Positions 13,473 to 63,208 of a DNA stretch of 64,000 nucleotides are shown piece by piece. Every line of letters begins with the position of its first letter. Positions within the stretch are counted from its first letter, which is position 1. Location of the stretch: the NCBI RefSeq assembly GCF_964204645.1, contig NC_134027.1, positions 19,492,560-19,556,559 on the forward strand, read 5' to 3'. The stretch is from Tubulanus polymorphus. Lineage: Eukaryota; Animalia; Nemertea. The notes under the pieces were generated by a model. That model ran no database searches, was not told where the DNA came from, and worked only from the letters and a program-made list of their open reading frames with translations. The position numbers and the translations under genes were made by a program.

Positions 13473-13502
13473 TTATATATCGTTAATTTTAACTTTATAT
13501 TT

Positions 13503-14656: not shown

Positions 14657-14679
14657 TTATTTAACAAAAAAATTAATTA

Positions 14680-16125: not shown

Positions 16126-16139
16126 TTATATAAAAAAAA

Positions 16140-17469: not shown

Positions 17470-17485
17470 TTATATAATTAAAAAA

Positions 17486-17924: not shown

Positions 17925-17943
17925 TTATTTAGAAAAAAAATTA

Positions 17944-18366: not shown

Positions 18367-18390
18367 TTATTTAGCAAAATAATTACGCAT

Positions 18391-18969: not shown

Positions 18970-18985
18970 TTATATAGTGAAAAAA

Positions 18986-19744: not shown

Positions 19745-19812
19745 TATTTATAACATAAAAAAATTACCGCTCATCACTAAAAATTAATTTTAATAAAATT
19801 TTTCCTTAATAA

Positions 19813-24100: not shown

Positions 24101-26164
24101 AATTGTACCCAATTTCTTTAATAATTGTTTTATAAATAGATGGGTATCATAGCCGGATAAATTATGAAATAATATTGGAACGAAATTTACTTTTTTAGCT
24201 TGTAAATTGCAATCTTCATGAGCAGCTCCACGATATTTTGAATTTAAATGATCATGATGTCTAACTTTTTTATCAAATGAATAAAAACGTTTTTCACAAT
24301 AACAACAATGAGTTGCATAATTAAAATCAATTTCATCTTCTTTTGTCATAACTATTCTTTTAATTTTGTTTAATAATTTTGCAAAATCACTTTCTAATTC
24401 AATCATTTTATCACAAAAATCATTAACTACATTTTCACCTCTAAAAGAAATATATTGACTTTCATATAATTCAGGATAATTTGATTTTATATAAATTCCA
24501 TAAGCAGCAGCTCTTTGATGAACTTTTTTAATTGTATTTATAATTGGTGGGTCTTGTATTGTGTCTTCATTTAATTCATTTCCTTTATCCATTGATTTTA
24601 ATAATTGCTTTTTGTTATATATTTCTTTTCTATCTTGATCAGTTAATTCTTTATTCAACGATTCAAAATCCCCATAAATTACAAATGGAACAATATTCTT
24701 AAATTTATGATTAGTAAATTTCAACTTACAATCTTTTTTTGTTGGCATTATTAATTTACAAAAATCTTTATTATCGCATAATTCTTTATGTTTTAGTAAC
24801 GCATTCTCAGTCATAAATTTAGATAAACATTTTCTACATAGATAAATTTTACGATGATGATCACTTTCTGTTGTTCTAAAGAATAAATCAATTTGTTTTA
24901 ACCACATATAATGTTCATTTTCATCTTTTTTGTAATATAACAAATCTATAACATTTTCATCATCATAATATTCTGTTAAATATAAAGCTTCCAATGTATA
25001 ATCTTTAATATTTTCACCTTTTGTCTTTGGTAATTGCATTAATTCAAATACATTTATTTTTAAATTATTAACTTTTTCTATTTTAGGAATCATTTTTATA
25101 GTTACCGGATATTGATTAATTTTATATAATGTTTCATATTTCCGGTAATTTGTTATTCTAAAACTATGCGTCATATCTTCTGTTGGGTGTAAGCAACTTA
25201 TAATCGCCCACAGAAAACATTTATTATCATCATTCTGCATATTAATTACTGCATTAGTTTTAAATGGTAATTTAATATAACTTGATGCTTTCACATCCTT
25301 TTCTATTATAAAGTTTGAATCATTTTTAAACATTTTATTACTTTTTGATGTTTTATTTCTTTTTGTATTATAAACATTTAAATCTAAATATATAATTTCA
25401 TTCAATGTTAAGCCAGAACCCTCAAAATATCTTTCTTCAATATGACGTTTAAATTCATTTAATATTTTTTCTAACTTCTCTTTTATTTGTGTTTTTGAAA
25501 TTATTTCTTCAGAGAGTGTTTGAATATTATAATTCATTTTTTCTTCTGACTTTATAAAACTTACTTTCCCAGAGATACTAATTTTTGGATATTCAACATC
25601 TGTTATCAAATCTAGTATTTTTTCTATTATTTCATTAAATTTACTATAATCTTCTATTGTTGTACCTTTAAAAAATCTAAATATAATAGCTGCAGGACCA
25701 ATTTTACTATGTAATGTTTCTAAGATTTCAATTGTATCTTTTATTTCTAGTGAATCAATATAATTTCTAACATTTTCCATGTAAGGTTTATTTGAAATGG
25801 ATTTAGTTTTTGAAGTTGATTCTTTTACTTGTTGAGGTTTATCATCAAAATAATCTTTTCCTAAAACATTATTACTCAAATTTTGGTTGTGTTTTTGTGA
25901 TTCGAGATGTCTATTATAATTCCTTTTTACTATAAATTCATTACAAACTTCACATTTTATTTCATCCACATTCATATTTTCTAATCGTTCTTTTCTTTCA
26001 TTGGAATTTTCTGGGGTTTCAAAATCTATAACATTTTTTATATGATTTGAAGATTTTTCATGTTTAGATTTATTAGATTTATCGATGTATTTTTTACAAT
26101 ATTGGCAATAATATTGATTTTTATTAACATTATTGTTTTCTGTTTGGTACTCACTCTCTCCCAT
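21125..26164 (-). CDS. Protein-primed DNA polymerase B (Zn fingers, TP/vOTU-like region, EndoVII insert, intein), several frameshifts
   Basis: YGDFES, FHNLSGYD, YLKSDV, YIDANNLYGWAM, KLMNNSFYGKT and YFD|TDS motifs over ORFs 23948-26164, 23144-23866 and 21195-23075. Confidence 0.95.
21582..22646 (-). mobile_element. Intein (355 aa) with LAGLIDADG homing endonuclease in pPolB
   Basis: YFD|SVTADTPI..VTEDHSL..FIKGFFMGVGS..FFIGFYAADGS..YVYDLST..IQKN|TDS; absent from P3 pPolB (YLDTDS). Confidence 0.95.
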
Positions 26165-26866
26165 TTATTAGGAAAAAAAATTACTTGTGGTGATGAGTGG
26201 TGTTTAGTACTCTAGTACTCTGGTATGAAACCCCACTTTTACAATTACTATTTGGGATGACATAATTTTGGCAGAGGGAGTCGAAGAAAACGGGCGTCTT
26301 TCTCTCAATGCACGTACTGGAATGGACCTAAAACTATGAAAGAGGTTAGAAACATAAGGAGGACAAAGTCTGTTTGAAGCTTTGAACATATAATTCCTTT
26401 TTACTATAAATTCATTACAAACTTCACATTTTATTTCATCCACATTCATATTTTCTAATCGTTCTTTTCTTTCATTGGAATTTTCTGGGGTTTCAAAATC
26501 TATAACATTTTTTATATGATTTGAAGATTTTTCATGTTTAGATTTATTAGATTTATCGATGTATTTTTTACAATATTGGCAATAATATTGATTTTTATTA
26601 ACATTATTGTTTTCTGTTTGGTACTCACTCTCTCCCATTTATTAGGAAAAAAAATTACTTGTGGTGATGAGTGGTGTTTAGTACTCTAGTACTCTGGTAT
26701 GAAACCCCACTTTTACAATTACTATTTGGGATGACATAATTTTGGCAGAGGGAGTCGAAGAAAACGGGCGTCTTTCTCTCAATGCACGTACTGGAATGGA
26801 CCTAAAACTATGAAAGAGGTTAGAAACATAAGGAGGACAAAGTCTGTTTGAAGCTTTGAACATATA
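25915..26866. repeat. 474-bp tandem duplication covering pPolB 5' end, right TIR, TSD and LINE flank
   Basis: 25915-26388 is repeated at 26389-26862; second TIR ends at 26723 and is again followed by ATTTGG. Confidence 0.93.
26180..26249 (-). repeat. P1 right terminal inverted repeat
   Basis: Ends AATTACT followed by TSD ATTTGG. Confidence 0.95.
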
Positions 26867-49253: not shown

Positions 49254-49335
49254 CTTAAAATATTCATATATATATGAATAACATTTAAATCATTGAACTT
49301 CTAAAATCAATTTTAATAAAAAATATAGTATTAAA

Positions 49336-52300
49336 ATGGAAGCAAATAAATACTACTGCCCAACATGTAATATCGATATAGATAAATCCTAAAAAGCAAG
49401 ACACAATAAAACTAGAACACATTTAGAGAATAAATTGAAACTAGAATATAAAGATGATATATTAGAAACTAAATTAGAAGAATTAAAGAATGAAAAAGAA
49501 ACATATAAATGTGATACATGTAATCAATCATTCAGTGATAAAAGATATTATAAAGAACATTTAAAATCTATAAGTCATATTAGAAATAAGAATAATGATA
49601 TTTTAGGTGAAGATTATTTTGATAATGATAACGATAAGAAACAGAAGACAATTAAAAGAATAAAAAATAAATTAAACAATAAAAGACCATATATGGAAGA
49701 TGTAAGAAATTATATTAATTCATTAGATAATAAAAAAGATATAGAGATAACCGAAGCATTTAAAAGTGATATTGGTCCAGCAGCTATCGAGTTTAAATTT
49801 CATAATGGAAAAACATTAGAAGAAAATAAAAAACATTTAGAAAATATGAAAGAAATAATAGAAATAATTACAGATGTTGAATATCCTAAAATTAGTATAT
49901 CAGTTAAAGTAAAGTTTATAAAATCTGAAGATAAACCAATATATAATATAAATTCTCATTCACAACATATTATATCTAAACAACATATAGATGATAAATT
50001 AAATAAATGTTATAATGAAATAAAAACTAAAATAGAAGAGAAATATTTTGAAGGATCTGGTTTAATATTTGATGAGATAATATTTATAACTTTACATGTT
50101 TATAACACAAAATATAATAAGTTAACTAAATCAAAACCAATTGATGAAAATAATTTATCATATTATAAAGAACCAGATATTGAAGCATCGAGTTATATTA
50201 AACTACCATTTAAAACTAATGCTGTAATAAATATACAAAATGAAGATGATAAATGTTTTCTATGGGCTATAATAAGTTGTTTACATCCAACAGAAGATAT
50301 TACACATAGTTTTAGATTAACTCATTATAAACAATTTGAAAGTAATTATAAGATAGATAAGTATCCTGTTAGAATTAAAAATATCCCAAAAATAGAAAGA
50401 GATAATAATTTAAAGATAAATGTATTTGATTTAATCAAATTACCAAATACAAAAGGAAATAATATTAAACATTATACATTAGAACCTTTATATCTATCAA
50501 AAGATTATGATTCAAATGATGTTATAGATATACTATATTATGAGAATCATTATATGTGGATTAAACTAATCGATTTATTTTTTAGAACAGAAAGTGATCA
50601 CCATAATAAAATATATCTATGTAGAAAATGTTTACATAAATTCAGTAATGAAAGTACATTATTAAATCATAAACAAATATGTGATAATCATGATTATTGT
50701 AAATTAGTTTTACCAAATGAAAAAGATAAAATATTAGAATTCAAAAAATATGATTACAAAAATAAAGTACCATTTGTAATATATGGAGATTTTGAATCAT
50801 TAAATAAAGAATTAACAGATAAAGATAGAAAAGATATATATTATAAAAGAAAGAAATTAAATTCTAATGAAAGTGATTATTCAGATGAACCACCAATAAC
50901 AAATACAATTAAAAAGATTCATCAATCAGCTGCAGCTTTCGGGATATATATTAAATCTGATTATCCAGAACTAATTGAAAGTGAATATTATCAGTATAGA
51001 AATGAAAATGTTATTAATCATTTTTGTGACTTATTAATTGAATATGAAATAAGATTTAATGAAAAGTTGAATACAAATAAAGAAATAATTATGACAGAAG
51101 AAGATAAAGAAGTATTTGCGTTTGCAGATAAATGTTATTATTGTGAAAAGATATTTAATTATAAAGTTAAAAAAGTAAGAGACCATGATCATTTGAATGG
51201 AAAGTTTAGAGGCGCTGCACATGAGAATTGTAATTTGCAAGCCAAAAAAGTAAATTTTGTCCCCATTATATTTCACAATTTATCGGGGTATGACGCGCAT
51301 TTATTCATTAAGCAACTGTGTCATAAAATAGAAGAAATTAATAATGAAATAGAAATATTAAATTCAAATAAATCAAAAGATAAAATACCAACGAATGTTA
51401 GCTAAAACATCTGAGAATTATATATCATTCCAATTTGGTTGTCTAGATTTATAGATTCATATAGATTTCTAGCAAGTTCATTAGATAATTTATCAAAATC
51501 ATTAGTTGATGATGAATTAAAGATATTAAAAGAATATTACCCAAATTATGATGATTTTAAATTAATGAGATATAAAGGCGCAATTCCATATTCTTTCTAT
51601 AAAAATCATAATGATTTTAAAATAACTGAATTATTGAAAGAACAATTCTATGATGAATTAAAAAATGAATATGTTAAAGATGAAGTCTATAATAGAACAT
51701 TGAATATTTGGAATCATTTCAAAATAGAAAATCATGGACAATTAGTAGATTTATATTTAAAATCAGATGTATTATTATTAACCGATATATTCGAAAGGTT
51801 TAGAGATGTAAACCTAAAATATTTCAATATTGATCCTTGTCATTGTTATTCTAGCCCAGGATTAACATGGGATTGTGGTTTAAAATTTACAGATATAAAA
51901 ATGGATTTGTTAACAAATATAGATCAATTACTATTATTTGAAAAATCTATAAGAGGAGGTGTTTCAGGTGTATTGGGTGATAGATATTTCAATGTAAATG
52001 ATAATCCTGGATATAAATTATTATACATAGATGCAAATAATCTTTATGGTTGGGCAATGATGGAACCACAACCTTATGGGATGTTTGAAATAACTGAAGT
52101 TTTACAAATTGATAAATTTGATTGGAAGAAAAGAATCCTAGATATTGCAGATGATTCAGATACTGGTTACTTCTTTGTTGTAGATTTAGAATACCCTGAA
52201 AATATTAAATTCAAATCTAGAAATCTAGCATATTGTCCCGAACATAAAACTGTTAAACATGAAGAATTATCAAATTATCAAAAAAGAATTAAACCTGAAA

Positions 52301-53355
52301 ATCATATTCATACAGAAAAGTTAATGGTAACTCAAGAAGATAAATATAATTATGTAGTACATTATAGAATGTTGAAGTTTTATTTGAATCAAGGAATGAT
52401 ATTAAAAAAAGTACATAGATATATTTCATTTAATCAATCTAAGTGGTTAGAAAAATATATAGATTTTAACACCAAACAGAGAACTGAAGCTAAAACAGAT
52501 TTTGAGAAGGATTTTTTTAAATTGATGAATAATGCATTTTATGGAAAAACATGTGAAAATATTAGAAATAGAAATGATATTGAGTTAGTTAGTAATGGTA
52601 AAAGAATTAGACATTTGCAATCGTATCCGAAATTCATAGGTAATAGAATATTCGATGAAAATTTAGCTGCAGTTAAATTAAAAAGAACTTCTATGAAGTT
52701 CAATAAACCTATTTATGTTGGAGCTGCAGTTTTAGAAATTTCAAAGCTATTGATGTATCAATTTTATTATAATGTTTTACAACCCCATTTTGGGGAAAAA
52801 CATATAGAAATCTTATATCTAGATACAGATTCTTACATATTAAAGATAAAAAGTGATAACATAACAAAAGACTTAAAAATATTAAAACACCATTTTGATT
52901 TCAGTAACTATCCAAAAAATCATGAACTATTTAACAATGATAATAAAAAAGTTTCTGGGAAGTTTAAGGATGAATTAGGTGGTGAAGAAATGATAGAGTT
53001 CATTGGTATTAGATCTAAAATGTATTCATATAAAACTAAAGAACATGAAGCTAAAAAGTTAAAAGGAATTACCAAAAGCGTTGTTGAAAAGAATATTCAT
53101 TTCAAAGATTACATCAATTGTATATTTAATGAAGAAGTTAGAAAACATAAAATGAAATGTTTAAGATCTGAAGATCATGAAATGTATATTGAAGAGATAG
53201 AGACGATAAGTCTAAACCCATTTGATGATAAAAGATATATTTTAGATGATGGAATCCACACAGTCGCCTATGGTTGCAATTTAGATGAATATATAAAATT
53301 CAAAAGAGAAGAAACAAAAGAAAATGAGATTATGAAAAGGATTCTAGCGTGTTAA
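49336..53355 (+). CDS. P3 protein-primed DNA polymerase B, intein-free (stop ~49390, frameshift ~51390)
   Basis: DDKCFLWAI, YGDFES, RDHDHLNGKFRGAAHENCN, YIDANNLYG, KLMNNAFYGK, YLDTDS. Confidence 0.95.
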
Positions 53356-53383
53356 TCAATTTCAATAAAAATTTGTATAATAA

Positions 53384-53725
53384 ATGGAGAGTAAACAAGT
53401 ACACAGTGAATTCTTAGATAGAATTAAAGATACTTCAAGCGTCAAATCTGTAGATTATAAATTCAAAAAGTTAACAGAATTAACAATTCACAAGAAATAT
53501 TTAATTACTAACATTGAAACAATTACTAATAAATATGGAGATAAATTAATAATTCATTTAGAATATGAAGGATTAAAAGGAAATAAATATAAATTCAGAA
53601 CATATTTACCAGATAGATTTCATAGATTATCAAGTGAAGATCTAGAAGAATTATGTTCTGGAGATTTCTATTTCGTATACAAAGGTAAGAATGAAAAAGG
53701 GCACCATGAAATAGATTTCGAATAA
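53384..53725 (+). CDS. P3 small conserved protein (possible OB-fold)
   Basis: Divergent homolog of 10022-10348. Confidence 0.75.
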   Translation: MESKQVHSEFLDRIKDTSSVKSVDYKFKKLTELTIHKKYLITNIETITNKYGDKLIIHLEYEGLKGNKYKFRTYLPDRFHRLSSEDLEELCSGDFYFVYKGKNEKGHHEIDFE

Positions 53726-53742
53726 GAAAATATATAAAATAA

Positions 53743-54498
53743 ATGGTGGAATTAAAAGAATACAGAATATTTATAGATTCTAGAAGGCTTACAAATTATA
53801 AATCACATAATTTATTAGTACAATTAGACAGAGAATTTAAGAATTGTGTAGATTTAAAATTAGTTAATATAAGTTTATGTAATTCTTTTTACAATGTATC
53901 GGATAAAACTTTTGAACATAGAGGGTTTATGATTTATATGAGAAATAAAGATAAATGGTTTCATATATTTTTAAAACCAGGATTATATAATTTAGAATCA
54001 TTAGCACAGGAAATTAATAGAAGAGCTCGGTTGAAAATCGGGGGCACTTCTGTATTTGAAATTAAATTTAATAAAATTGATAGTACTAATAAAATAAGAA
54101 TAAAGATATCTAATGAACAACATAAATTTATGGTAAACAAACCACTGGCTAAAATGTTAGGAATTAAACCACTTACAGTTACTGGAAACGCAGAAGGCAG
54201 CTCAAATATAATACCTTTTACACACTTTTATATTTATTGCAATTTAATCGATCCTACAAAAACATTCGAAGCAACTAAAGAAACAATTTGTAGTTCTAGT
54301 ATACTAAATATTTTACCGCTAAAAAATGTTAAACAATTTGGAACTCAAATAAATTATAATTTAACAGAATGTGATTTTAAACCTTGCATTCCTAAATTTA
54401 ATAATTTTAAATTAGAAATAAGAAATCATAATGGATACTTAATTGATTTAAATAACTTTCCTGTGATATATGAATTAGTTATAAGATGTAGAGAGTAA
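53743..54498 (+). CDS. P3 minor capsid (penton) protein
   Basis: Homolog of 18986-19744. Confidence 0.8.
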   Translation: MVELKEYRIFIDSRRLTNYKSHNLLVQLDREFKNCVDLKLVNISLCNSFYNVSDKTFEHRGFMIYMRNKDKWFHIFLKPGLYNLESLAQEINRRARLKIGGTSVFEIKFNKIDSTNKIRIKISNEQHKFMVNKPLAKMLGIKPLTVTGNAEGSSNIIPFTHFYIYCNLIDPTKTFEATKETICSSSILNILPLKNVKQFGTQINYNLTECDFKPCIPKFNNFKLEIRNHNGYLIDLNNFPVIYELVIRCRE

Positions 54499-54514
54499 TT
54501 TTTTTGATATATAA

Positions 54515-54874
54515 ATGAATATAACTGTTGGACCAAGTATATGTTTTGGATTTGATTTTAAACATGAGAAAGAAATGAAATTTAATATTAATGATGTAAT
54601 TACACATATCAAAAATATTGCATTTTCTAATGAAACAACATTTGAGTATGAAACAACAATAGATAAAGAAACTTTAAATGTAGAAAAGATTACTAATTTA
54701 ATTAGAGAATCTTTAAGATTTTATGAATTAGATGAAGATTTTATCATCGATGATATTAAAAACATATTATCCAAAATATATGATAATCATAAAACTAGTA
54801 ATGAAATAAATGTTGAATTAATCATAAATAAGTTAACTAAATATTTTGAAGATAGTAATTTTTTTGATAAATAA
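54515..54874 (+). CDS. P3 119-aa hypothetical protein
   Basis: Homolog of 18613-18969. Confidence 0.8.
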   Translation: MNITVGPSICFGFDFKHEKEMKFNINDVITHIKNIAFSNETTFEYETTIDKETLNVEKITNLIRESLRFYELDEDFIIDDIKNILSKIYDNHKTSNEINVELIINKLTKYFEDSNFFDK

Positions 54875-55096
54875 ATGAGTGATATTAAGTGGATAATAAC
54901 TGGATTATATAATGGCGCATTACTATCAGTTGGAACTGTTGGTTATTCAATGGTATTAAAAAAAGTATTCAAAATGGGAAGTGTTAATGTTGATAGATTT
55001 GATATAAATGATATTTTAAAGTTAACATTAGCAGTTACTTTATCTAATTTAACTATTGATTATTTGGAAAAACAAAAATATATTCCTCCCATATAA
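54875..55096 (+). CDS. P3 73-aa hydrophobic protein
   Basis: Homolog of 18391-18612. Confidence 0.85.
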   Translation: MSDIKWIITGLYNGALLSVGTVGYSMVLKKVFKMGSVNVDRFDINDILKLTLAVTLSNLTIDYLEKQKYIPPI

Positions 55097-55120
55097 ATAC
55101 ATAATTTTTTTGCTAAATAA

Positions 55121-55543
55121 ATGGCTTCTGCAATTATAACTATTATAGGATCAGCAATTGTTAACGCTTTAGGATTTACTGGTGGTGGTTATTTATTTAA
55201 ACATATTGATAAAAATAGTTCATTAGGAGAACAAAGAAGACATAACTTAGCGTTAGAGAAATATAATAAAGCTGCAGAAGAATATAGAGAAAAGAGACAA
55301 AACTATATGGATTACATCAATAAAGAATTATATGATCAGAAGATTTCACACAGAGATTTTCAATCAGTTGATGATGCAATGAGTTTATATAACGCAGTAA
55401 CCAATAAAGAAAAATTACATCTATACAAACCTAAATTATCAGATTATTATACCCCGAGTAAAGAACAACAGAAATATGAAATAATTTGGATTTTAGGTGG
55501 AACTGTTATTGTTATATTTGTTGCTTATAAGTTTACTAATTAG
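55121..55543 (+). CDS. P3 140-aa membrane-associated protein
   Basis: Hydrophobic N- and C-termini; homolog of 17944-18366. Confidence 0.85.
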   Translation: MASAIITIIGSAIVNALGFTGGGYLFKHIDKNSSLGEQRRHNLALEKYNKAAEEYREKRQNYMDYINKELYDQKISHRDFQSVDDAMSLYNAVTNKEKLHLYKPKLSDYYTPSKEQQKYEIIWILGGTVIVIFVAYKFTN

Positions 55544-55562
55544 TAATTTTTATTCTAAATAA

Positions 55563-55997
55563 ATGGAAGATAAAGTTGATAGTATTGATATTATTCCTCA
55601 TGATATAAATAAAACTAAATTAAAAACATATTTAGAAAAACAAATATTAGAATTTGAAAGTGACTTAAAGATAAAAAAGAAAAAATATTTAAAAAGTAAA
55701 ATTATATATTATTTGATTATAAGTGGTTCGGTTACAATTAGTTCTGTAATAACATTTCTAGCAATATTCAGCCCATTAACACCTTTAGCTATATCAATTG
55801 GTGTATTAGGATTAAGTTCAAGTGTTTTAACTGGTATAAGTTCAAAATTAAATATAAAAAGTAATAAAGAAAAAATAAAATCTAATATAAAAGAAATTAA
55901 TAAATTAAAGAACACACTAGATTATATAATAAGTTTAAATGGTCATATAACAGTTGAAGAACAAGATAAATTATTAAAAGAATTAATAAATTATTAA
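55563..55997 (+). CDS. P3 144-aa two-TM protein
   Basis: Central hydrophobic hairpin between helical segments. Confidence 0.85.
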   Translation: MEDKVDSIDIIPHDINKTKLKTYLEKQILEFESDLKIKKKKYLKSKIIYYLIISGSVTISSVITFLAIFSPLTPLAISIGVLGLSSSVLTGISSKLNIKSNKEKIKSNIKEINKLKNTLDYIISLNGHITVEEQDKLLKELINY

Positions 55998-56013
55998 TTT
56001 TTTAATTATATAA

Positions 56014-57402
56014 ATGGCAGATAGTTTTCCAAAAGCTTTCCAATATAATAAATCAATTAAATATAATATTCCAGCAATAGATTTTAATAAAGATATTACA
56101 TATAGAAATGAAGTTTTAGATTCATTAACTAATTTAGAAATTTATGTTACTGAAACTAATAATTTTAATGCAAAGATGGAAAATATATTTCATGTATATT
56201 TAATTAATTTTAAAAAATTGAAAGATGAAAAACAATGGTTATTAAAATCTAATATGAAGTATTGGCAGAACCAATTAAATTTTGCTGTTTATTGTGCAAC
56301 AACAGGATGTGGAATAAGTTGGAATGATCATTTGAATAATTCTAAATATAAACTAATTCAAAGTTTATTTAGATTTCATACATACTTTCAAATCAGAATA
56401 ATATTAAATGAATTAGAGTGTGCTTTACCAGGATCTAGATATTTTAAAGAATTAGATAATAATATTAATTTATCAAAGTTTTATAAAATTTGTAATGAAT
56501 TTAATATAGATATAAATAATTCTGATTTTAGAACAAAAATTGGAACAATAAGATCACTTCCTTGCCCTAAAAAGATTGCAGAATATTGTGCACTTCCCAT
56601 ACCATCTAATAGTTTTTATAATATCTATAATAAAAAATTAGGTTATGGTAAAATAGAAACAAAGGATTTAGAAACATTAAATTTCAATAAATTACCAAAA
56701 TTTTATGATAATTTAAAACAAGAAAACAATAATGGTTGGGTTTATTTTATTTTAGAAAATAGTGAAGGTTTTACTAAATCAGGTATAGAAAGAATAAATC
56801 AATCTATTAGAACTTATTTGATTTGTATTCTAGGATCACAAGTTGAAACAAGATCACCGATAATTGGAAATTTGAATACATCATTCGATGCGCAGAAACA
56901 GTTTAAAGTTTTATTTGAAGATTCAATTCATAATGATAAAAATAGATCGATTCCAGAAAACATTATAAGATATCAAAATTATTTAGATAAATCTCATGTA
57001 AGACTTAATTATTGTATAGGCCCTAATCTATTAATTATTTCTAATGATTTAGTATTGAAGATGGGAAACATAATTGGTTATAATAATCTAATTAAAACTG
57101 CAACAATAAATAATTCATTTGGATTAAATGATATAAATAAAAAGATTATTACTGCTCCAAAATTAATGGAAGGTGAAAAAAATAAAAAACATATTCAATC
57201 AACAGAAACTAAAACTAAGAATATTAAATTGGATAATGATTCTAAAATAAAAGATTACAATACATCAGAAAATAATAGAACTGATAAAATTCAACATGAT
57301 ATAATTAAACTAAATGATGATAATAAATCCCATGAAAATACTAAATTAGCTATAACTTGTATAGGAATTGTAATCGGAGGAATATTATATTTTAAATTTT
57401 AA
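56014..57402 (+). CDS. P3 462-aa conserved protein with C-terminal TM anchor
   Basis: WQNQLNFAVYCATTGCG core; LAITCIGIVIGGILYF tail. Confidence 0.88.
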   Translation: MADSFPKAFQYNKSIKYNIPAIDFNKDITYRNEVLDSLTNLEIYVTETNNFNAKMENIFHVYLINFKKLKDEKQWLLKSNMKYWQNQLNFAVYCATTGCGISWNDHLNNSKYKLIQSLFRFHTYFQIRIILNELECALPGSRYFKELDNNINLSKFYKICNEFNIDINNSDFRTKIGTIRSLPCPKKIAEYCALPIPSNSFYNIYNKKLGYGKIETKDLETLNFNKLPKFYDNLKQENNNGWVYFILENSEGFTKSGIERINQSIRTYLICILGSQVETRSPIIGNLNTSFDAQKQFKVLFEDSIHNDKNRSIPENIIRYQNYLDKSHVRLNYCIGPNLLIISNDLVLKMGNIIGYNNLIKTATINNSFGLNDINKKIITAPKLMEGEKNKKHIQSTETKTKNIKLDNDSKIKDYNTSENNRTDKIQHDIIKLNDDNKSHENTKLAITCIGIVIGGILYFKF

Positions 57403-57418
57403 TTTTTTTATTATGTAA

Positions 57419-59107
57419 ATGGATGTAGAAGGTGGAGAAAATATTCCATTGGATGACATGGGAAATGATAATGAAGGATATATTGATGATGATTATAATG
57501 ATGCAGGTGCTAATATTGATAATAATGATGAATCAGCATATAATACTAATTTAGGTGAAGATGATGATTATGATGATGGAATTAATACCGAAGTACGTGA
57601 AAAAATAAATAAATATTTAGAAGCTCTTGAAAGTGGTAAAATTTCAACTAGAACAGAAAGAAAAGAATTCATGGAACTATTAGTAAAACAAGAAGAAAAA
57701 TATCCTAATGAACGTTTGGAATTATATAAAATGAAATCTAGAGTAACAGATACAATTGTTAACGAATTACTACCAATAGCTCTAATACATGAAATTGATC
57801 CAAAAGGTGTTGTAGAACAAATTTTGAAAGATGACCCATATTTCATGAATAATTTAGAATTTAAAAATGATGCATGGTATTATAATCTTGATTTAAATAA
57901 CAAAATTGTATCAATTCAATTATCTAAAATGGGTCAAGAAAATATTTATGAACCTGAAATGCGAGCATTATCTACAATTGAACATTCAAAAGGTGGCACA
58001 GAATTTCTCAGAATTATATGGAATGCACTCGATAGAATAAATGAAAAAGAACCAATTCCTAAAATTGATATAAACAAATATTCACCATTTAAAAATCCAT
58101 TTAAAAATCCAAATCCAAATCCTACTGATTTTGATCCAGAAATGGAAGAGAATAGAAATCGATTAGATGGATTAAGATCTTCAACACCCGAAACATCTAG
58201 AAGAGACACTCAACAAATTGATAATGATTCAAGTAAATTACAATTAGAAAAACAAATTGATAGATTAAGAGATTCAGAAGAACTGATGAATAGTGCTGGA
58301 ATAAATCGAATACAATCTTTACTAGAAAAAGGATTATTTGATTTAACTGATGATGAATTAGAAGCATTTCCTGAACAAGCACGTAGAGAAATTAAAGGTA
58401 TGCAAGAATCAGCTGATAAAATTGCGCATGAAAAAAGTAAAAGAGATATTAAAATTAGATTTTTAGAAAAAGATAGAACTGATAAAAATAAAGAAATAGA
58501 ACAATTAAAATTAGATAGAGATAATAAAGTTATTGAAGAAATTGAATTTAAAAAAAGAAATGCATATTTAGAAAAAGAAATTGATGATTTAGAATATAAC
58601 ATAGAATTACAAAAAGAAGAAATTAAATTATTATTAAAATCATATGATTATAATATTAATAGATTAAAAGTTATTTTTAAAGATTTGTTGATTAAACCAA
58701 ATTCTGAAATATCATTAAAAGACAGAATAAAGTTATTATTTAAATTAGAAGGAATAACAATTCTTTCAATTCTAACATCTGTTACTATGTTATTTACAAC
58801 AATTGGTTTAGCTATATCAAATGCTTTGAAATCTACTCCTACTCCCAATAAACCAGATAAACCCCCAGGTAATAATTCTATACAAGATAAAGTTAAAGAT
58901 GGTTTAAAGAAATTAGCAAAATATTTATGGGAACTATCTAAAAAATCTGCTGCAGCTTTACCAGGAGTTATTGCATCAATTGTTGGTTTTATATTGAAAT
59001 CTGCAGGAAACATTATTAACTTTGCTGCTGAACATATTATTTTATTTTTAATTACAGTTGTAAGTGCTATTATTTTTAGTTTAGTGAATATGATTAAAAA
59101 TAAATAA
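57419..59107 (+). CDS. P3 562-aa acidic/coiled-coil protein with C-terminal TM helices
   Basis: Intact ORF; hydrophobic segments near the C-terminus. Confidence 0.88.
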   Translation: MDVEGGENIPLDDMGNDNEGYIDDDYNDAGANIDNNDESAYNTNLGEDDDYDDGINTEVREKINKYLEALESGKISTRTERKEFMELLVKQEEKYPNERLELYKMKSRVTDTIVNELLPIALIHEIDPKGVVEQILKDDPYFMNNLEFKNDAWYYNLDLNNKIVSIQLSKMGQENIYEPEMRALSTIEHSKGGTEFLRIIWNALDRINEKEPIPKIDINKYSPFKNPFKNPNPNPTDFDPEMEENRNRLDGLRSSTPETSRRDTQQIDNDSSKLQLEKQIDRLRDSEELMNSAGINRIQSLLEKGLFDLTDDELEAFPEQARREIKGMQESADKIAHEKSKRDIKIRFLEKDRTDKNKEIEQLKLDRDNKVIEEIEFKKRNAYLEKEIDDLEYNIELQKEEIKLLLKSYDYNINRLKVIFKDLLIKPNSEISLKDRIKLLFKLEGITILSILTSVTMLFTTIGLAISNALKSTPTPNKPDKPPGNNSIQDKVKDGLKKLAKYLWELSKKSAAALPGVIASIVGFILKSAGNIINFAAEHIILFLITVVSAIIFSLVNMIKNK

Positions 59108-59127
59108 TTAATTTTTTTGTTAAATAA

Positions 59128-60377
59128 ATGAGTGGGAGTTATATCAATCCTTCTAAGAATCATAGAATATCTAATGCTATTAAAGCAGAAAGATCACATC
59201 ATATAATTACTCATAACCCTTCAAATATTAATCCCGATGAAACTTTATACGTTAGAATTCCTAGATTAACACAAAATACTTTTTATGTTCCAAATAGTAT
59301 TTATTTATCAGCTGATATAAAAGTAATCGGTAATAATAATAATTATGTTGTCGATAATGTTGGAAGATATTTGATTAAAAAGTTAACAATAAAGATTGGT
59401 CCAGAAACAGTTTTCTCATTAGATGATTATAATTTATTTATGCACTATAAAGATTTATGGTTAACTAAAGAAAATAGAAATAATATGATATTTCAAGGAA
59501 TCCAATCAGAAAACCAAAATAAATTAAGATCAGAAGCTAATAGCGCAATATTAACAAATGATGTAGATAAATTGATAAAAAGTATATATGGAAGCAAATA
59601 TAAAATTCCATTAGACTTTGAATTGATAAATAATAATGCACCTTTATATAAATACGCAATTCAAGAAGATGTTATATTCGAAATAACATTTGCTCCTGTA
59701 AATGAAATTGTAATATCTAGCGTTAATAAAGATATGAGTTATAAATTATCGAATATATGTTTAGAATATGATACAGTAACTGATGAAAATATTTCAAGTA
59801 TAATTCAAACTAAATACAATCAAGGATTTTCATTATTATATGATTATATTGATAAATTTAAAACTGTAACTATTAATGCAAATGATGAAATAATAAATGA
59901 GAATATTAACTTTCCTAGAAGATCTATTAAAGGTATATTAATATTTTTTACTATTGGAACGTATACTAATGGCGCAATAAATGTTGATAATTATTATAAT
60001 CCTGAAATAACAAAAGTAGAAATAACTATCGAAGGTATAGCGAATAAAATATTTTGTCAAGGAATGAGAATGATAGATCAATGGGTAGAAATTAAAAAAC
60101 ATTTTATGAATGAAAAAGTAAAATCATTTGAAAATTGTAACATTAATCAAATTGATATTATTATACCGGTAATAAATATGCATTATGGTTAGATTTTAGA
60201 ACAACTGAAGATAACTTATTACATGGTTCTGGAAAAAAACTACAGAACACTAAAGATGGAATACAATTATTCATGATAAAGAAAAAAGGAATCAAAAATT
60301 TTAAAATGCACATTTATATTATATCTGATGCGCAATTAAATATTGTAAATTCACAATTAGATAGTGTTATGTATTAA
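59128..60377 (+). CDS. P3 major capsid protein (frameshift ~60160)
   Basis: ORF 59128-60192 plus shifted C-terminus KYALWLDFRT..LDSVMY. Confidence 0.78.
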
Positions 60378-60409
60378 AATTGTAACTTTAATAAAAATAT
60401 ATATAATAA

Positions 60410-61357
60410 ATGGAAGGAGGTAAAGTATATAAACATATTCCATACATCGATACACATGAAAATAATGATGGTTTATATTATGTAATACCTTGTAATATAG
60501 CTTTGATATTTGATCCTATTTTTAGAAATTATAAAACTAAACTGATAGAAATCGATAATAATAAAAGTGGTGTTGTTAATAATAGTGTAATTGATAATAA
60601 TGTAATACCTACTACTACATCTGTAATACCTACTACTACATCTGTAATACCTTCTACATCTGTAATACCTACTACATCTGTAATACCTACTACTACATCT
60701 GTAATACCTACTACATCAAATAATGTAATACCTTCTACATCTAATAATGCAATAATATTAAATGTTAGTGAAAATAGAAATTATTGTGGTTATTGTAATG
60801 GTGAATTTTCAAACGCTCCATCAAATTGGAATAAACATATGAATACAAATTCACATATTACTAATGTTATAGAACGTGTTGGTTTAAAAGAATTTATAGA
60901 ACACCCATTTAGATATGTTACAAAGTTTGTTTCAAATAAAAAAGTAAATGGTAAAGAATTATATGAAGATTTTTTATTAACAACACCTAATAAAGATGAA
61001 TTAGATTTAACTGATGCTAATGAAATATTAGGATCAAACACTGTAAATGAAATATTAGGAGCAAACACTAATAAAGATGATAATGAAAATGATGCCATAC
61101 ACCCACATGATGATATAGTTACAGTTAAACATATTGATAATAAAGATTCTATAAAACTTAAAGTAGAAAATAATGATAAATTTGATTGGATGAATAAGTT
61201 TAAAAATGAAACAACTATTGATGATTTGGTAAAAAAGGTGAAAAAGGTGAAAAAAAATTATAAAGATGTTGATGTAGATTCGGTAGAGCATTTAAATATG
61301 TTGTTAGCGTCTGATAGTGAAAGTGATTCAGAAATTGATTATCTAAAACTCGAATAA
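60410..61357 (+). CDS. P3-specific protein with VIPT(T)TS repeats and one C2H2-like Zn finger
   Basis: 18/21-bp tandem repeats at ~60600-60740; YCGYC..WNKHMNTNSH. Confidence 0.8.
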   Translation: MEGGKVYKHIPYIDTHENNDGLYYVIPCNIALIFDPIFRNYKTKLIEIDNNKSGVVNNSVIDNNVIPTTTSVIPTTTSVIPSTSVIPTTSVIPTTTSVIPTTSNNVIPSTSNNAIILNVSENRNYCGYCNGEFSNAPSNWNKHMNTNSHITNVIERVGLKEFIEHPFRYVTKFVSNKKVNGKELYEDFLLTTPNKDELDLTDANEILGSNTVNEILGANTNKDDNENDAIHPHDDIVTVKHIDNKDSIKLKVENNDKFDWMNKFKNETTIDDLVKKVKKVKKNYKDVDVDSVEHLNMLLASDSESDSEIDYLKLE

Positions 61358-61515: not shown

Positions 61516-62127
61516 TTATTTTATAAATTTATATTCATATGGAAATTGTAATCTCATAAGTAATTTGGAACCTTTATTATTTTTTAATTTATTCATATAC
61601 TCATCGTGTAATTCAGTAGGTATAATTTGATTTTCTTCCAATGATTGTTGCATAGATTTTCTATCTTTGTTGTAGAATAAAACTAGAAATCTTATATTCT
61701 CTCTAAAATCTTTCACAATTGAATTATATTTCTGATTTAAAACCCAAGTTGTTATCCCAAAATGTCTACCAGAGAAAGCTAAATAACATAACTCACTTTC
61801 TCTAATTTTAGAATCATGTAAATTTGCGCAATCATCAATAATAAATAATGTATTTGATCCTTTATAAATATCTAATGCAATTTTTATACAATTATCTAAA
61901 TTTTCTTTTACTGTTTTAGGGTCTAATATAATAAACTTTTTTATCTTAACTATATCTCTATTATATGTTTTATTCATTTCATAAGTAGGACAGAATAATA
62001 TTATATTATCAAAATGATTCTTATAAATAGTTTCTAACAAATCTAATATGAAATGTGTTTTACCACAATTGGTTACTCCAGTAACTAACATATTATGCGG
62101 TTCAAATATAAATAAATCTTTATTCAT
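61516..62127 (-). CDS. P3 A32-like packaging ATPase
   Basis: GVTNCGKT, FIIDD, GRHFGI. Confidence 0.93.
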   Translation of the reverse strand: MNKDLFIFEPHNMLVTGVTNCGKTHFILDLLETIYKNHFDNIILFCPTYEMNKTYNRDIVKIKKFIILDPKTVKENLDNCIKIALDIYKGSNTLFIIDDCANLHDSKIRESELCYLAFSGRHFGITTWVLNQKYNSIVKDFRENIRFLVLFYNKDRKSMQQSLEENQIIPTELHDEYMNKLKNNKGSKLLMRLQFPYEYKFIK

Positions 62128-63208
62128 TTATTCTTTTAATTTTACTAGATAAAATCCATTCATTAAATTTATCATCATATCCTTTATATTTCACCAAAGA
62201 ATACTTTTTTCCTTTAAGAGTTTTTGTTTTCAATACTTTTTCTATTTTGTATTCTATTTCATCTGGATTTGGTACTAATGATAATTCTTGTTCATAAAAA
62301 TAACCTAATATTTCTTCATCTTTTAAATCAAACAATTTATAAACAAATGGTTTAGTTAATATTATCTTTTTAATTTTAAATATTTCTTCTGTAAAATTAG
62401 GGGTATAACCTTTATAAAATGTTTTTCGATATTTAGAAATTCTAACATGTTGTCCTATTTTAAATTTAGGTTCTCCAAAATCATGTGTAACAAATGCTCC
62501 ATATAAATTATTCCAAACTATTTCTGAATTTTCTTCTTTTCTAGCTTGTATAGGTTTCATATTTATAGAACTATGTTTAGAATTATTATAACCTTTCATT
62601 AAATCATCTAACACATCGATATATTTATATGTTTCATTAGCAGTAAAATATTTCCACATTCTAGTTTTCAATGTTTTATTAAATCTTTCTATAACAGATG
62701 CTTTTTTATCTGAATGTGTTGAAAAATATTCTACATCGTTATCAGATAATAGTTTTTTAAAATGTTTGTTATAAAATTCTTTACCTTCATCAAATTGTAT
62801 CTTATCTGGAATAGCTTCTTTAAATATTAATTTGAAAACATTTGTTACTTCTATACCAGTTTTATTTTTAATCGGGATACTCCATGCGTATCTACTGAAT
62901 ATATCTATAACATTTAGTATCCAAAAATATCCTTTGTTGTATTCTTCTAAGTTTTTCATATCAATTAAATCTGCTTGCCATTGTTGATCAATATATGAAA
63001 CCATTACTTTTCTTGTTAAATATTTTTTATCCATCTTTTTATGAATTTGATATGTGGGTTGATTTTGTAACCATGATTTTAATTCACTATATTTTATTTT
63101 TTCTTTATCAGATTTAATTTTATCCCATAATTCCGAAACACTTGAATATGATACTTCACTTTCTGGGTTATAATATAACTCTCTTAAATATTGTTCTTTT
63201 TTCATCAT
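62120..63208 (-). CDS. P3 rve integrase with chromodomain, intact
   Basis: QWQADLIDM, QFDEGKEF, IERFNKT, YKIEKVL..VKYKGYDDKFNEWI. Confidence 0.95.
   Translation of the reverse strand: MMKKEQYLRELYYNPESEVSYSSVSELWDKIKSDKEKIKYSELKSWLQNQPTYQIHKKMDKKYLTRKVMVSYIDQQWQADLIDMKNLEEYNKGYFWILNVIDIFSRYAWSIPIKNKTGIEVTNVFKLIFKEAIPDKIQFDEGKEFYNKHFKKLLSDNDVEYFSTHSDKKASVIERFNKTLKTRMWKYFTANETYKYIDVLDDLMKGYNNSKHSSINMKPIQARKEENSEIVWNNLYGAFVTHDFGEPKFKIGQHVRISKYRKTFYKGYTPNFTEEIFKIKKIILTKPFVYKLFDLKDEEILGYFYEQELSLVPNPDEIEYKIEKVLKTKTLKGKKYSLVKYKGYDDKFNEWILSSKIKRINE

What the first reader, a model, noticed from the sequence alone, without database searches (positions are those of the whole stretch)
53350..60412. T-run + ~6-nt spacer + TAAATG late-promoter grammar, and a second promoter class for non-structural genes
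By my count 15 of 16 P1 genes and 12 of 14 visible P3 starts have TAAATG exactly. Structural genes show TTTTTT(T)-gatata/gctaaa/aattata/attatg/gttaaa-TAAATG (54515, 55121, 56014, 57419, 59128), the layout of strong vaccinia late promoters. Genes at 49336 (pPolB), 53384, 60410 and 19813 (VLTF3) instead have TTT(T/C)AATAAAA followed ~10 nt later by TAAA(A)TG, reminiscent of poxvirus intermediate promoters. This suggests a two-stage cascade.
Basis: partly seen in the sequence, partly recalled or inferred. Interest (0 to 1): 0.78.

Follow-up and report, generated by a model that had tools for sequence, protein, structure and literature searches.

The report
Poxvirus-style promoters on Maverick genes
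Nearly every gene of these AT-rich Maverick/Polinton virus copies in an animal genome, and of their metagenomic relatives, begins with TAAATG preceded at a fixed distance by a T-run or an A-run, a layout that matches poxvirus late and intermediate promoters and so likely means the elements are transcribed gene by gene by a poxvirus-type polymerase, probably lent by a helper virus.

Summary
In the 23% GC Maverick/Polinton copies of the window, 31 of 38 gene starts are TAAATG against 93 of 1534 other ATGs. TAA-T5+-N3-9-TAAATG occurs 18 times against 0.25 in shuffles.

The trait belongs to a clade, not to base composition. In 16 metagenome loci whose capsid gene is at least 49% identical, 53 of 64 ORF starts are TAAATG. 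In 56 more distant loci, 4 of 193 are, including AT-rich ones.

Two fixed geometries exist: a T-run 5-8 nt before TAAATG and an A-run 9-11 nt before it.

The layout matches published poxvirus late promoters (T-rich core, 5-7 bp spacer, TAAAT(G/A)) and intermediate promoters (AT-rich core, spacer, TAAA).

The two classes do not follow gene function. The penton gene carries class 2, one pPolB copy carries a T-run, and some capsid genes carry the A-run. The VLTF3 label has no support. A two-stage cascade is therefore unproven.

No RNA data could be laid, so initiation at TAAAT and a poxvirus-like helper are inferences. Held papers hold no description of this grammar in Polintons.

The parts
53361..53386 (+). 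Class 2 cassette of gene 53384 (113 aa, unknown): A-rich core TTCAATAAAAA 53361-53371, 9-nt spacer, TAAATG 53381-53386
53717..53745 (+). Degenerate class-2-like core (TTCGAATAAGAAAA) and TAAATG 53740-53745 of gene 53743-54498, the penton (minor capsid) protein
   Evidence: fold: (mavirus penton 6g41, E 9e-8)
54496..54517 (+). Class 1 cassette of gene 54515: TAA (stop of the penton gene), T7 54499-54505, GATATA, TAAATG 54512-54517
54856..54877 (+). Class 1 cassette of gene 54875. TAA-T7 lies inside the end of ORF 54515-54874; here the TAA of TAAATG is the stop of the upstream ORF
55102..55123 (+). Class 1 cassette of gene 55121: TAA, T7 55105-55111, GCTAAA, TAAATG
55544..55565 (+). Class 1 cassette of gene 55563: TAA, T5ATT, spacer, TAAATG (the P1 copy has T8)
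55995..56016 (+). Class 1 cassette of gene 56014 (462 aa): TAA, T6 55998-56003, AATTATA, TAAATG
57400..57421 (+). Class 1 cassette of gene 57419 (562 aa): TAA, T7 57403-57409, ATTATG, TAAATG
59109..59130 (+). Class 1 cassette of the major capsid protein gene 59128-60192. This copy ends at 354 aa; relatives have 408-419 aa
60387..60412 (+). Class 2 cassette of gene 60410-61357 (315 aa, unknown): TTTAATAAAAA 60387-60397, spacer, TAAATG 60407-60412. Class 2 in all 4 family members
49312..49338 (+). Class 2 core TTTAATAAAAAA and TAAAATG at the start of the P3 pPolB reading frame, which has in-frame stops in this copy
19745..19815 (.). Divergent intergenic region of P1: class 2 core and TAAATG for 19813 (+; C2H2 zinc-finger protein), TAA-T7 and TAAATAATG for the penton gene 19744 (-)
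9986..26866 (-). Copy P1 of the Maverick/Polinton. It holds an A32-like ATPase (11738-12343), rve integrase (12462-13472), capsid gene fragments, pPolB fragments (21198-26164) and a 474-bp perfect tandem duplication at 25915-26866. 14 of 16 gene starts are TAAATG
61516..63208 (-). A32-like packaging ATPase (61516-62127) and rve integrase (62120-63208) of the neighbouring copy. The ATPase start is a TAAATG embedded in the integrase coding end, with no T-run

Best explanation
The cassette before each gene is a compact two-part signal, a T-run 5-8 nt or an A-run 9-11 nt upstream of a TAAAT that overlaps the start codon, and it likely works as a poxvirus-type promoter. In that reading the run is the core element and TAAAT is the initiator. 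Each gene would be transcribed on its own, from within TAAAT, by a poxvirus-like (nucleocytoviral) RNA polymerase that the element does not encode. That enzyme would probably come from a co-infecting entomopoxvirus-like helper. The mRNAs would have no templated 5' leader and would be predicted to carry a slipped 5' poly(A) head.

Shown: the sequence grammar, its fixed geometry, its restriction to one capsid clade, and its independence from base composition and from upstream stop codons. Inferred: that it is a promoter, where transcription starts, which polymerase reads it, and that a helper virus exists.
For: 1. Enrichment. 31 of 38 starts are TAAATG against 93 of 1534 other ATGs. The composite motif occurs 18 times against 0.25 in shuffles.

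2. Independent relatives. 53 of 64 ORF starts are TAAATG in 16 loci with capsid identity of 49% or more, including 9 of 11 in loci of 36-44% GC. In 56 more distant loci the figure is 4 of 193, and 1 of 32 in the AT-rich ones (L015, L024, L029, L031, L032, L035, L042). On a capsid tree of 22 rows, one starred clade of 14 holds all 13 TAAATG rows plus L012, which has TGAATG.

3. Position-locked upstream signal against a matched control, start TAAATG against non-start TAAATG in the same contigs: T at -12 in 45/50 against 30/91, A at -18 in 38/50 against 24/91, A at -4 in 42/50 against 34/91. Spacers: T5+ runs lie 5-8 nt away in 38 of 49 runs, with the mode at 6. A5+ runs lie 9-11 nt away in 16 of 30 runs.

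4. It is not a 3' signal. Of 19 downstream stretches printed (convergent and last genes, some internal ones), none opens with a T-run directly after the stop. The cassette is present before first genes of divergent pairs (19744/19813, L009, L011, L001_10981).

5. It is not stop-start coupling. The upstream ORF ends in the TAA of TAAATG in 4 of 85 cases, and 42 of 85 have no upstream ORF end within 60 nt.

6. Coding starts at this ATG. An in-frame TAA precedes it, and G3 of the capsid protein is nearly invariant. A start site 30 nt downstream of a TATA-like box is therefore excluded.

7. Match to published poxvirus promoters.
- Late: T-containing core, 5-7 bp spacer, TAAAT(G/A), no 5' UTR (PMC5294985, passages).
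- Intermediate: AT-rich core at -26 to -13, 12-bp spacer, TAAA at -1 to +3 read directly by the polymerase core (PMC12917281, passages).
- The G8R initiator is TAAAAT, and 5' poly(A) leaders arise by polymerase sliding at the initiator (PMC12722222, passages).
- Entomopoxviruses use TAAATG as their late signal (PMC3061580, passages).

8. Context. The host is an animal, probably an arthropod: a BEL/Pao retrotransposon is inserted in copy P2, and its nearest Atlas clusters are mostly Arthropoda (a lead). Polinton-like viruses have been found inside entomopoxvirus occlusion bodies (PMC11296320, abstract and passages). Virophages carry the late promoter of their giant virus (PMC8547959, passages).

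9. No RNA polymerase or capping enzyme family was hit in the elements.
Against: - No transcript data. No start site, no poly(A) head and no dependence on any virus is shown.
- These are full Mavericks with their own pPolB and rve integrase. They sit in the nuclear genome in very many copies: 9942 contigs of DNA run X1 match the 7-kb stretch. That fits a germline transposon or an autonomous nuclear virus as well as a satellite.
- No helper virus sequence was seen. No gene shared with poxviruses was found, and my searches for one were limited.
- The geometry of class 2 is close to the vaccinia intermediate promoter but not identical. The core lies at about -22 to -11 from the presumed +1, against -26 to -13. 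The spacer is 9-11 nt against 12.
- Seventeen of 50 relatives' starts and 10 of 31 window starts have TAAATG without a run of 5 or more.
- The published entomopoxvirus-associated PLVs carry primase-helicase and tyrosine recombinase, not pPolB and rve. They are a different lineage.
- The hexamer from -5 to the A of ATG reads AATAAA or TATAAA, which are also poly(A)-signal and TATA-box words.
Confidence: 0.5

Rival explanations
1. The cassette is a promoter, but a nuclear one. Host RNA polymerase II would initiate at TAAAT next to the ATG, perhaps with TBP on the (A/T)ATAAA word and an element-encoded zinc-finger factor. The element would then be an autonomous adintovirus-like virus or transposon with no helper. 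The resemblance to poxvirus promoters would reflect shared ancestry of Polintons and nucleocytoviruses, or convergence.
For: - The elements have their own pPolB, integrase, ATPase, capsid and penton genes.
- Copy number in the genome is very high.
- They encode C2H2 or U1-type zinc-finger proteins: 19813 and the N-terminus of the pPolB gene.
- The vaccinia late and intermediate elements are reported as TBP targets (title of reference 56 in PMC5294985, seen only as a reference).
Against: - Intergenic spaces of about 16 nt leave no room for a usual Pol II promoter plus a poly(A) site per gene.
- A Pol II start site at -2 from the ATG would give leaderless mRNAs, which scanning ribosomes translate poorly (established knowledge).
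- More distant relatives of the same capsid family do not use TAAATG.
- Two ORF starts of the BEL/Pao element in the same genome are not TAAATG: 0 of 2.
Confidence: 0.25
2. The signal acts on RNA, not DNA. A few long polycistronic transcripts would be made, and the unstructured U-run/A-rich stretch with an in-frame UAA before each AUG would promote internal initiation or termination-reinitiation of ribosomes.
For: Genes are packed head to tail on one strand with gaps of 13-28 nt. In 7 of 85 cases the upstream stop lies exactly at -19.
Against: - The cassette is equally present before first genes with no upstream ORF: 42 of 85 have none ending within 60 nt.
- It is also present before both genes of divergent pairs.
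- The distance from the upstream stop varies from -60 to +11.
- T at -3 is a poor context for scanning ribosomes (established knowledge).
Confidence: 0.08
3. The conserved word is a 3'-end signal of the upstream gene. (A/T)ATAAA before the ATG and AATAAA inside the class 2 core would be poly(A) signals, and the T-run would be a terminator or a U-rich element.
For: Positions -5 to 0 read AATAAA or TATAAA in most starts. The class 2 core contains AATAAA. T7 contains the poxvirus early stop TTTTTNT (word as quoted in PMC3061580).
Against: - The motif abuts the ATG exactly, which a 3' signal has no reason to do.
- It is present before first genes.
- None of the 19 stops printed, terminal and convergent genes among them, is followed by TAA-T-run.
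- About half of the relatives have T at -5, giving TATAAA, a rare poly(A) variant in animals (recalled).
Confidence: 0.07
4. It is an artefact of AT-rich composition and of calling the first ATG after a stop as the start.
For: The elements are 77% A+T. TAA is the commonest stop. An ATG with an in-frame TAA before it is by definition the first ATG.
Against: - Shuffles give 0.25 composite motifs where 18 are seen.
- Off-frame internal ATGs are TAAATG in 46 of 434 cases.
- AT-rich relatives outside the clade: 1 of 32. Relatives of 36-44% GC inside it: 9 of 11.
- The matched control of non-start TAAATG lacks the upstream pattern.
Confidence: 0.02

Closest known systems
Poxvirus late promoters (vaccinia; entomopoxviruses use the same TAAATG signal)
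   Same: T-containing core, spacer of 5-7 bp and a TAAAT initiator usually followed by G, so that TAAATG joins the transcription and translation starts with no templated 5' UTR (PMC5294985 and PMC3061580, passages). Here: T5-T8 run, spacer with mode 6 nt, and TAAATG at 31 of 38 starts.
   Different: The genes sit on a pPolB/rve Maverick integrated in an animal genome, not on a poxvirus. The core here is a short T-run preceded by a conserved (T)AA at -19 to -17. Nothing is known about start sites, poly(A) heads or factors.
Vaccinia intermediate promoters
   Same: Two-part layout: AT-rich core, spacer of about one helical turn, TAAA at the start site. The G8R initiator is TAAAAT (PMC12917281 and PMC12722222, passages). 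Here: an A-run core 9-11 nt before TAA(A)ATG. The P3 pPolB start has TAAAATG.
   Different: The core lies about 2-4 nt closer to the initiator than in vaccinia. The core here has a repeated word, TT(T/C)AATAAAA, whereas the vaccinia core is said to lack a consensus. The class does not follow gene function.
Virophage and polinton-like virus promoters that copy the late promoter of their giant virus (mavirus and EMALEs with the CroV TCTA motif)
   Same: Small integrated capsid-encoding DNA viruses without an RNA polymerase, with one short conserved motif before most genes (PMC8547959, passages).
   Different: The motif here is of poxvirus type, the host is an animal rather than a protist, and no helper has been seen.
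Polinton-like viruses found in entomopoxvirus occlusion bodies (Barth et al. 2024, PMC11296320)
   Same: Small capsid-encoding elements tied to insects and proposed as hyperparasites of poxviruses. One is integrated in a beetle genome (abstract and passages).
   Different: Those carry primase-helicase and tyrosine recombinase, or no integrase, not pPolB and rve. That paper's text has no occurrence of 'promoter', 'TAAAT', 'motif' or 'transcription'. I could not fetch their sequences, so relatedness and shared grammar are untested.
Yeast cytoplasmic virus-like elements (linear pPolB plasmids)
   Same: [quoted passage not shown]
   Different: They encode their own polymerase and capping enzyme, have no capsid genes and do not integrate. 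Their upstream motif differs (recalled, not checked here).

Membership tests
Poxvirus-type late promoter | TAAAT initiator, usually TAAATG, overlapping the start codon | tested here: met
   31 of 38 window starts and 53 of 64 starts in close relatives
Poxvirus-type late promoter | T-rich core separated by about 5-7 bp from TAAAT | tested here: met
   18 of 31 window TAAATG starts have a T5+ run 3-9 nt upstream, against 6 of 93 non-start TAAATG; spacer mode 6. In window plus relatives, 38 of 49 T5+ runs lie at 5-8 nt
Poxvirus-type late promoter | Transcription starts inside TAAAT and the mRNA carries a non-templated 5' poly(A) leader | not testable with these tools
   No RNA holder listed. The one RNA-guess run laid gave a single 35-nt piece
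Poxvirus-type late promoter | Read by the poxviral multisubunit RNA polymerase with late factors | not testable with these tools
   No polymerase, capping enzyme or VLTF family hit in the elements. No helper sequence at hand
Poxvirus-type intermediate promoter | AT-rich core at about -26 to -13, spacer of about 12 bp, TAAA at -1 to +3 | tested here: inconclusive
   The A-run core ends 9-11 nt before TAA(A)ATG. From the presumed +1 the core is at about -22 to -11, which is close but shifted
Virophage-like promoter mimicry of a helper virus | The same motif precedes the late genes of the helper virus | not testable with these tools
   The helper is unknown. The link to entomopoxviruses rests on published TAAATG use and on context
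Maverick/Polinton | Protein-primed family B DNA polymerase | tested here: met
   DNA_pol_B_2 at 41.2 bits in P1 23147-23866. The P3 frame 49336-53355 is 74-78% identical in DNA to the P1 gene and is interrupted by stops
Maverick/Polinton | Retroviral-type (rve) integrase | tested here: met
   rve at 37.2 and 40 bits, above the cut-off of 32.6
Maverick/Polinton | Capsid module: double jelly-roll major capsid protein, penton, A32-like packaging ATPase | tested here: met
   Pox_A32 at 44.9 and 45.5 bits. Penton fold for 53743 (model pLDDT 60.6, TM 0.3, so moderate). For the major capsid protein: Capsid_N only at 19 bits, below the cut-off, Atlas neighbours with Capsid_N, and 101 homologues of about 415 aa
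Maverick/Polinton | Adenain-like maturation protease | tested here: not met
   No protease family at E up to 0.01 in 40 ORFs. Several ORFs remain unassigned, so it may be hidden or lost
Eukaryotic poly(A) signal | AAUAAA-type hexamer downstream of a gene, at no fixed distance to the next start | tested here: not met
   The word abuts the ATG exactly and also precedes first genes
   No such hit at E up to 5; the best hit is zf-C2H2 at E 1.5e-4. The fold was not tested

The most novel reading that the evidence does not exclude
A whole clade of Mavericks living in arthropod genomes is wired, gene by gene, to the post-replicative transcription system of poxviruses. These would be endogenous virophages of entomopoxviruses: silent in the germline in thousands of copies and switched on only when a poxvirus brings a polymerase that reads TAAAT. 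The two core types (T-run and A-run) would tap the late and intermediate stages. They would be the first true Polintons shown to depend on a poxvirus. They could also act as a heritable, inducible anti-poxvirus defence in animals, as mavirus does in Cafeteria.
Probability: 0.3. Interest if true: 0.88.

Novelty: new variant of a known kind. Interest (0 to 1): 0.72.

Why it matters
How animal Mavericks and Polintons are expressed is unknown, and so is whether any of them needs a helper virus. A promoter grammar otherwise known from poxviruses gives a concrete and cheap test: 5' ends at TAAAT, poly(A) heads, and induction by entomopoxvirus infection.

If the test holds, the virophage lifestyle extends from protists to animals and from mimivirus-like helpers to poxviruses. 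It would also link the recently found polinton-like viruses in entomopoxvirus occlusion bodies to the large Maverick load of arthropod genomes.

The result bears on evolution too. The poxvirus late and intermediate promoter design may be older than poxviruses and shared with pPolB elements, as it is in yeast linear plasmids.

Practically, the motif marks true gene starts, so it can be used to annotate these elements.

Tried and rejected
- RNA evidence: no RNA holder listed. Laying the one run guessed to be RNA (X5) gave a single 35-nt piece. Expression is therefore untested.
- No whole genome is held. Earlier scan notes hold nothing for this genome, these words or this capsid.
- IMG/VR: single-protein scans with the capsid protein and the ATPase, and a profile scan with the capsid alignment, found no relative.
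This looks like chance in AT-rich contigs, and no contig shown had repeated cassettes. I did not examine those loci further.
- Ciliate code: the pPolB frame of P3 has in-frame TAA, but table 6 destroys the gene map while the standard code gives tightly packed ORFs that end in TAA or TAG. I read the stops as decay of this copy.
- Fold of the 60410 family: pLDDT 38.5, unusable, so not searched.
- VLTF3: no Pfam hit.
- Splice-acceptor reading of the T-run: by eye, no AG before the ATG in the class 1 cassettes of P3 (54515-59128) printed.
- T5NT avoidance inside genes: T5+ runs are 12 against 52 A5+ runs on the coding strand of ten P3 genes. The A>T skew of the coding strand can explain this, so I draw nothing from it.
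- Papers not held: PMC3196450, PMC241297 and PMC3438937. The primary vaccinia promoter papers were therefore not read, and what I say about them comes from passages of the later papers named in this report.
- Literature search for prior description. 'TAAATG' with 'polinton' gave one unrelated paper. No listed paper with 'maverick' or 'polinton' had 'TAAAT'. The adintovirus paper PMC8502044 has no occurrence of 'promoter' (listing only).
- Supplements were not opened. Supplementary tables of PMC11296320 may hold gene lists that bear on relatedness.

Full report
What the window is.

The window alternates between DNA of 35-44% GC and blocks of 22-24% GC. The AT-rich blocks are copies of one Maverick/Polinton-type element:
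- P1 at about 9986-26866, with genes mostly on the minus strand.
- P2 at 34766-40648 plus 47157-48867.
- P3 at about 48900-61400 on the plus strand.
- A fragment of a further copy at 61500-64000.

The copies are 75-92% identical to each other. P2 is split by an LTR retrotransposon at 40648-47157 whose proteins carry Peptidase_A17, DUF1759 and DUF5641, which marks a BEL/Pao element. From recall, that family is known only from animals. Its nearest Atlas clusters are mostly Arthropoda (a lead only).

Pfam gives these assignments:
- An A32-like packaging ATPase (61519-62127 and 11738-12343).
- An rve integrase (62123-63208 and 12462-13472).
- A protein-primed family B polymerase (P1 23147-23866).
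- A weak Capsid_N hit for the P1 homologue of gene 59128.

Gene 59128 has 101 homologues, mostly of 408-419 aa, and capsid-like Atlas neighbours. Gene 53743 folds as a penton protein. Its best matches are the mavirus penton 6g41 at E 9e-8, then Sputnik, PBCV-1 and adenovirus pentons. The model is moderate, with pLDDT 60.6.

The standard genetic code gives tightly packed ORFs, and the ciliate code does not. Several genes in these copies are interrupted or shortened, so the copies are decaying. One DNA run of the same organism holds 9942 contigs that match the 7-kb stretch. The family is therefore very abundant in that genome.

The observation.

Of the 49 first ATGs that I listed, 31 are TAAATG. 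I removed 11 rows that are internal ATGs of broken copies, which leaves 31 of 38. Other ATGs in the elements are TAAATG in 93 of 1534 cases, and off-frame ATGs inside the genes in 46 of 434.

Against 300 dinucleotide-preserving shuffles of the element regions:
- T5-N4-9-TAAATG occurs 24 times against 3.3 expected.
- TAAT5-N3-9-TAAATG occurs 18 times against 0.25 expected.

Among TAAATG words, 18 of 31 at starts have a T5+ run 3-9 nt upstream, against 6 of 93 elsewhere. Two of those six are starts of short copies that I had not listed. The spacer is 6 nt in 10 of 18 cases and 5-7 nt in 16 of 18. Because the copies are paralogues, I also counted by gene family: 16 of 16 families have TAAATG or TAAAATG in at least one copy.

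Independent sequences.

A profile of capsid homologues retrieved 72 metagenome loci.
- In the 16 loci whose capsid is at least 49% identical to the window's, 53 of 64 ORF starts are TAAATG, against 97 of 2323 other ATGs.
- In the 56 more distant loci, 4 of 193 starts are TAAATG, against 90 of 5687 other ATGs.

Composition does not explain this. Loci of 36-44% GC inside the clade keep the motif (9 of 11 starts). AT-rich loci outside it lack it (1 of 32).

I built a capsid tree of 22 rows, using only loci where my rule found a capsid ORF of 300 aa or more; L001 was lost by that rule. One starred clade of 14 rows holds all 13 TAAATG rows plus L012, which has TGAATG.

In 50 TAAATG starts of 15 relatives (L003 dropped as a near-copy of L002) the upstream profile is position-locked: AA at -18/-17, T at -15 to -12, A at -6 and -4, and G at +4. 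Set against the 91 non-start TAAATG words of the same contigs, T at -12 is 45/50 against 30/91. A at -18 is 38/50 against 24/91, and A at -4 is 42/50 against 34/91.

Two geometries.

Pooling window and relatives, T5+ runs end 5-8 nt before TAAATG in 38 of 49 runs, with the mode at 6. A5+ runs end 9-11 nt before it in 16 of 30 runs.

TT(T/C)AATAAAA occurs 20 times in the window and 15 relatives, and 9 of these are followed by TAA(A)ATG at exactly +10 or +11. Alone, the word is no more frequent than in shuffles (3 against 3.0). With the downstream TAA(A)ATG it is 3 against 0.05.

By class:
- Window: 17 T-run, 3 A-run, 1 both and 10 neither, of 31.
- Relatives: 21 T-run, 12 A-run and 17 neither, of 50.

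What it is not.

- Stop-start coupling. The upstream ORF ends in the TAA of TAAATG in 4 of 85 cases. Its stop lies anywhere from -60 to +11, and 42 of 85 starts have no upstream ORF end within 60 nt.
- A general 3' signal. Of 19 downstream stretches printed (convergent and last genes, some internal ones), none has a T-run directly after the stop. First genes of divergent pairs do carry the cassette.
- A TATA box for a start site 30 nt downstream. An in-frame TAA precedes the ATG, and protein conservation begins at residue 3 of the capsid protein.
- A splice acceptor. By eye, the class 1 cassettes of P3 (54515-59128) have no AG before the ATG.
- A start context for scanning ribosomes. This is unlikely because T at -3 is disfavoured in eukaryotes (established knowledge). 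I could not test ordinary host genes. The two ORF starts of the BEL/Pao element are not TAAATG.

How it most likely works.

The layout equals that described for vaccinia late promoters: a core with T residues, a spacer of about 5-7 bp, and TAAAT usually followed by G or A, with no 5' UTR (PMC5294985, passages). Entomopoxviruses use the same TAAATG signal (PMC3061580, passages).

The A-run type is close to the vaccinia intermediate promoter. That promoter has an AT-rich core at -26 to -13, a 12-bp spacer, and TAAA at -1 to +3, which the polymerase core reads directly (PMC12917281, passages). The G8R initiator is TAAAAT, the word found at the P3 pPolB start. Post-replicative poxvirus mRNAs get non-templated 5' poly(A) leaders by sliding of the polymerase at the initiator (PMC12722222, passages).

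I therefore read the cassette as a core element plus a TAAAT initiator. Transcription would start next to the ATG, and the mRNAs would have no templated leader. The elements encode no polymerase that Pfam can see, so the enzyme would come from elsewhere.

The most likely source is a poxvirus-like helper, for four reasons:
- Virophages carry the late promoter of their giant virus (PMC8547959, passages).
- Polinton-like viruses have been found in entomopoxvirus occlusion bodies (PMC11296320, abstract and passages).
- The host appears to be an arthropod.
- From recall, entomopoxviruses are about as AT-rich as these elements.

All steps from 'promoter' onward are inference. No transcript was seen.

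The cascade idea.

The two classes do not sort by function:
- The penton gene, which is structural, has class 2 in L001, a degenerate class 2 in P3, and a T-run in P1, L010 and L025.
- pPolB has class 2 in P3 and a T-run in P1.
- The 53384 family is mixed.
- Capsid genes of L008 and L014 carry the A-run type.
- Only the 60410 family is class 2 in all four members, two of them near-identical. Its function is unknown because the fold failed.
- The ATPase start has neither run and lies inside the integrase coding end.
- Gene 19813 is a C2H2 zinc-finger protein with no VLTF3 hit at E up to 5.

Two promoter types therefore exist, but a two-stage programme tied to gene function is not shown.

Novelty.

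I found no paper in the held library that mentions TAAATG together with 'polinton' (one unrelated hit). No listed paper with 'maverick' or 'polinton' contains 'TAAAT'. The entomopoxvirus-PLV paper contains none of 'promoter', 'TAAAT', 'motif' or 'transcription'. The adintovirus paper has no 'promoter' (listing).

Promoter mimicry by virophages is known, and so is the poxvirus grammar. A pPolB/rve Maverick clade in an animal genome that carries this grammar at nearly every gene appears to be new. I rate it a new variant of a known kind.

Verdict.

The poxvirus-like reading is well founded as a resemblance and plausible as a mechanism. The structural/non-structural cascade is not supported. The decisive data are 5' ends of the transcripts and their dependence on infection.

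Noticed in passing
window 48868-49253: A large imperfect palindrome sits between the truncated end of copy P2 and the start of the P3 pPolB frame. It has arms of 85 nt at 74% complementarity, inner arms of 55 nt at 89%, and a perfect 18-nt hairpin at 49027-49086. It could be a foldback insertion or a rebuilt element end.
   Followed up: partly
window 40648-47157: A BEL/Pao LTR retrotransposon is inserted in the capsid region of copy P2. Its ORFs of 611 and 1245 aa are intact and its 423-bp LTRs are 99.3% identical, so the insertion is recent.
   Followed up: partly
window 21198-23075 and 49435-51402: The polymerase gene carries homing-type inserts. P1 has weak Intein_splicing and LAGLIDADG_3 hits, and P3 has a weak Endonuclease_7 hit at residues 554-602. 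All are below the Pfam cut-offs.
   Followed up: no
window 61425-61504; 11473-11513; 37191-37466; also L002 and L004 behind the ATPase gene: Each copy has its own short tandem array just downstream of the ATPase gene, at the point where gene directions converge. The units are 15 nt (TAGGGTATCAGGTAT) in one copy and 11 nt (CAACTAGAATT) in others. The position is conserved and the sequence is not.
   Followed up: no
window 25915-26866: A perfect 474-bp tandem duplication covers the start of the P1 pPolB gene with its TAA-T8-TAAATG cassette. The same cassette and gene start recur in inverted form near 10022 and 34850, that is, inside the terminal inverted repeats.
   Followed up: partly
L024, L031, L032, L042 (29-32% GC); L016, L017, L019, L045, L050, L058: More distant relatives of the capsid family lack TAAATG but have their own words near the start. 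TATAG or ATATA-type words abut the ATG in the first group. ATTTAAAG lies about 30 nt upstream of the capsid gene in the second. This suggests lineage-specific promoter types.
   Followed up: partly
window 53350-60412 laid on run X1: 9942 contigs of one DNA run match this 7-kb stretch at 85-100% identity, with many internal deletions and rearranged joints. The family is present in a very large number of diverged and broken copies.
   Followed up: no
window 53384-61357, coding strand: Inside ten P3 genes, A5+ runs outnumber T5+ runs 52 to 12, and TTTTTNT occurs only 4 times. This may be codon and skew bias or avoidance of T-runs.
   Followed up: no
window 60596-60754: A 21-nt tandem repeat of about 7 copies lies inside gene 60410, so it is in frame as a 7-residue repeat. 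This may explain the length differences (277-431 aa) in that family.
   Followed up: no
L009 2018-2045, L010, L011: Divergent gene pairs are separated by only about 28 nt. The space is built as CATTTA...T-run/A-run...TAAATG, so a single run serves as T-run for one gene and A-run for the other.
   Followed up: partly
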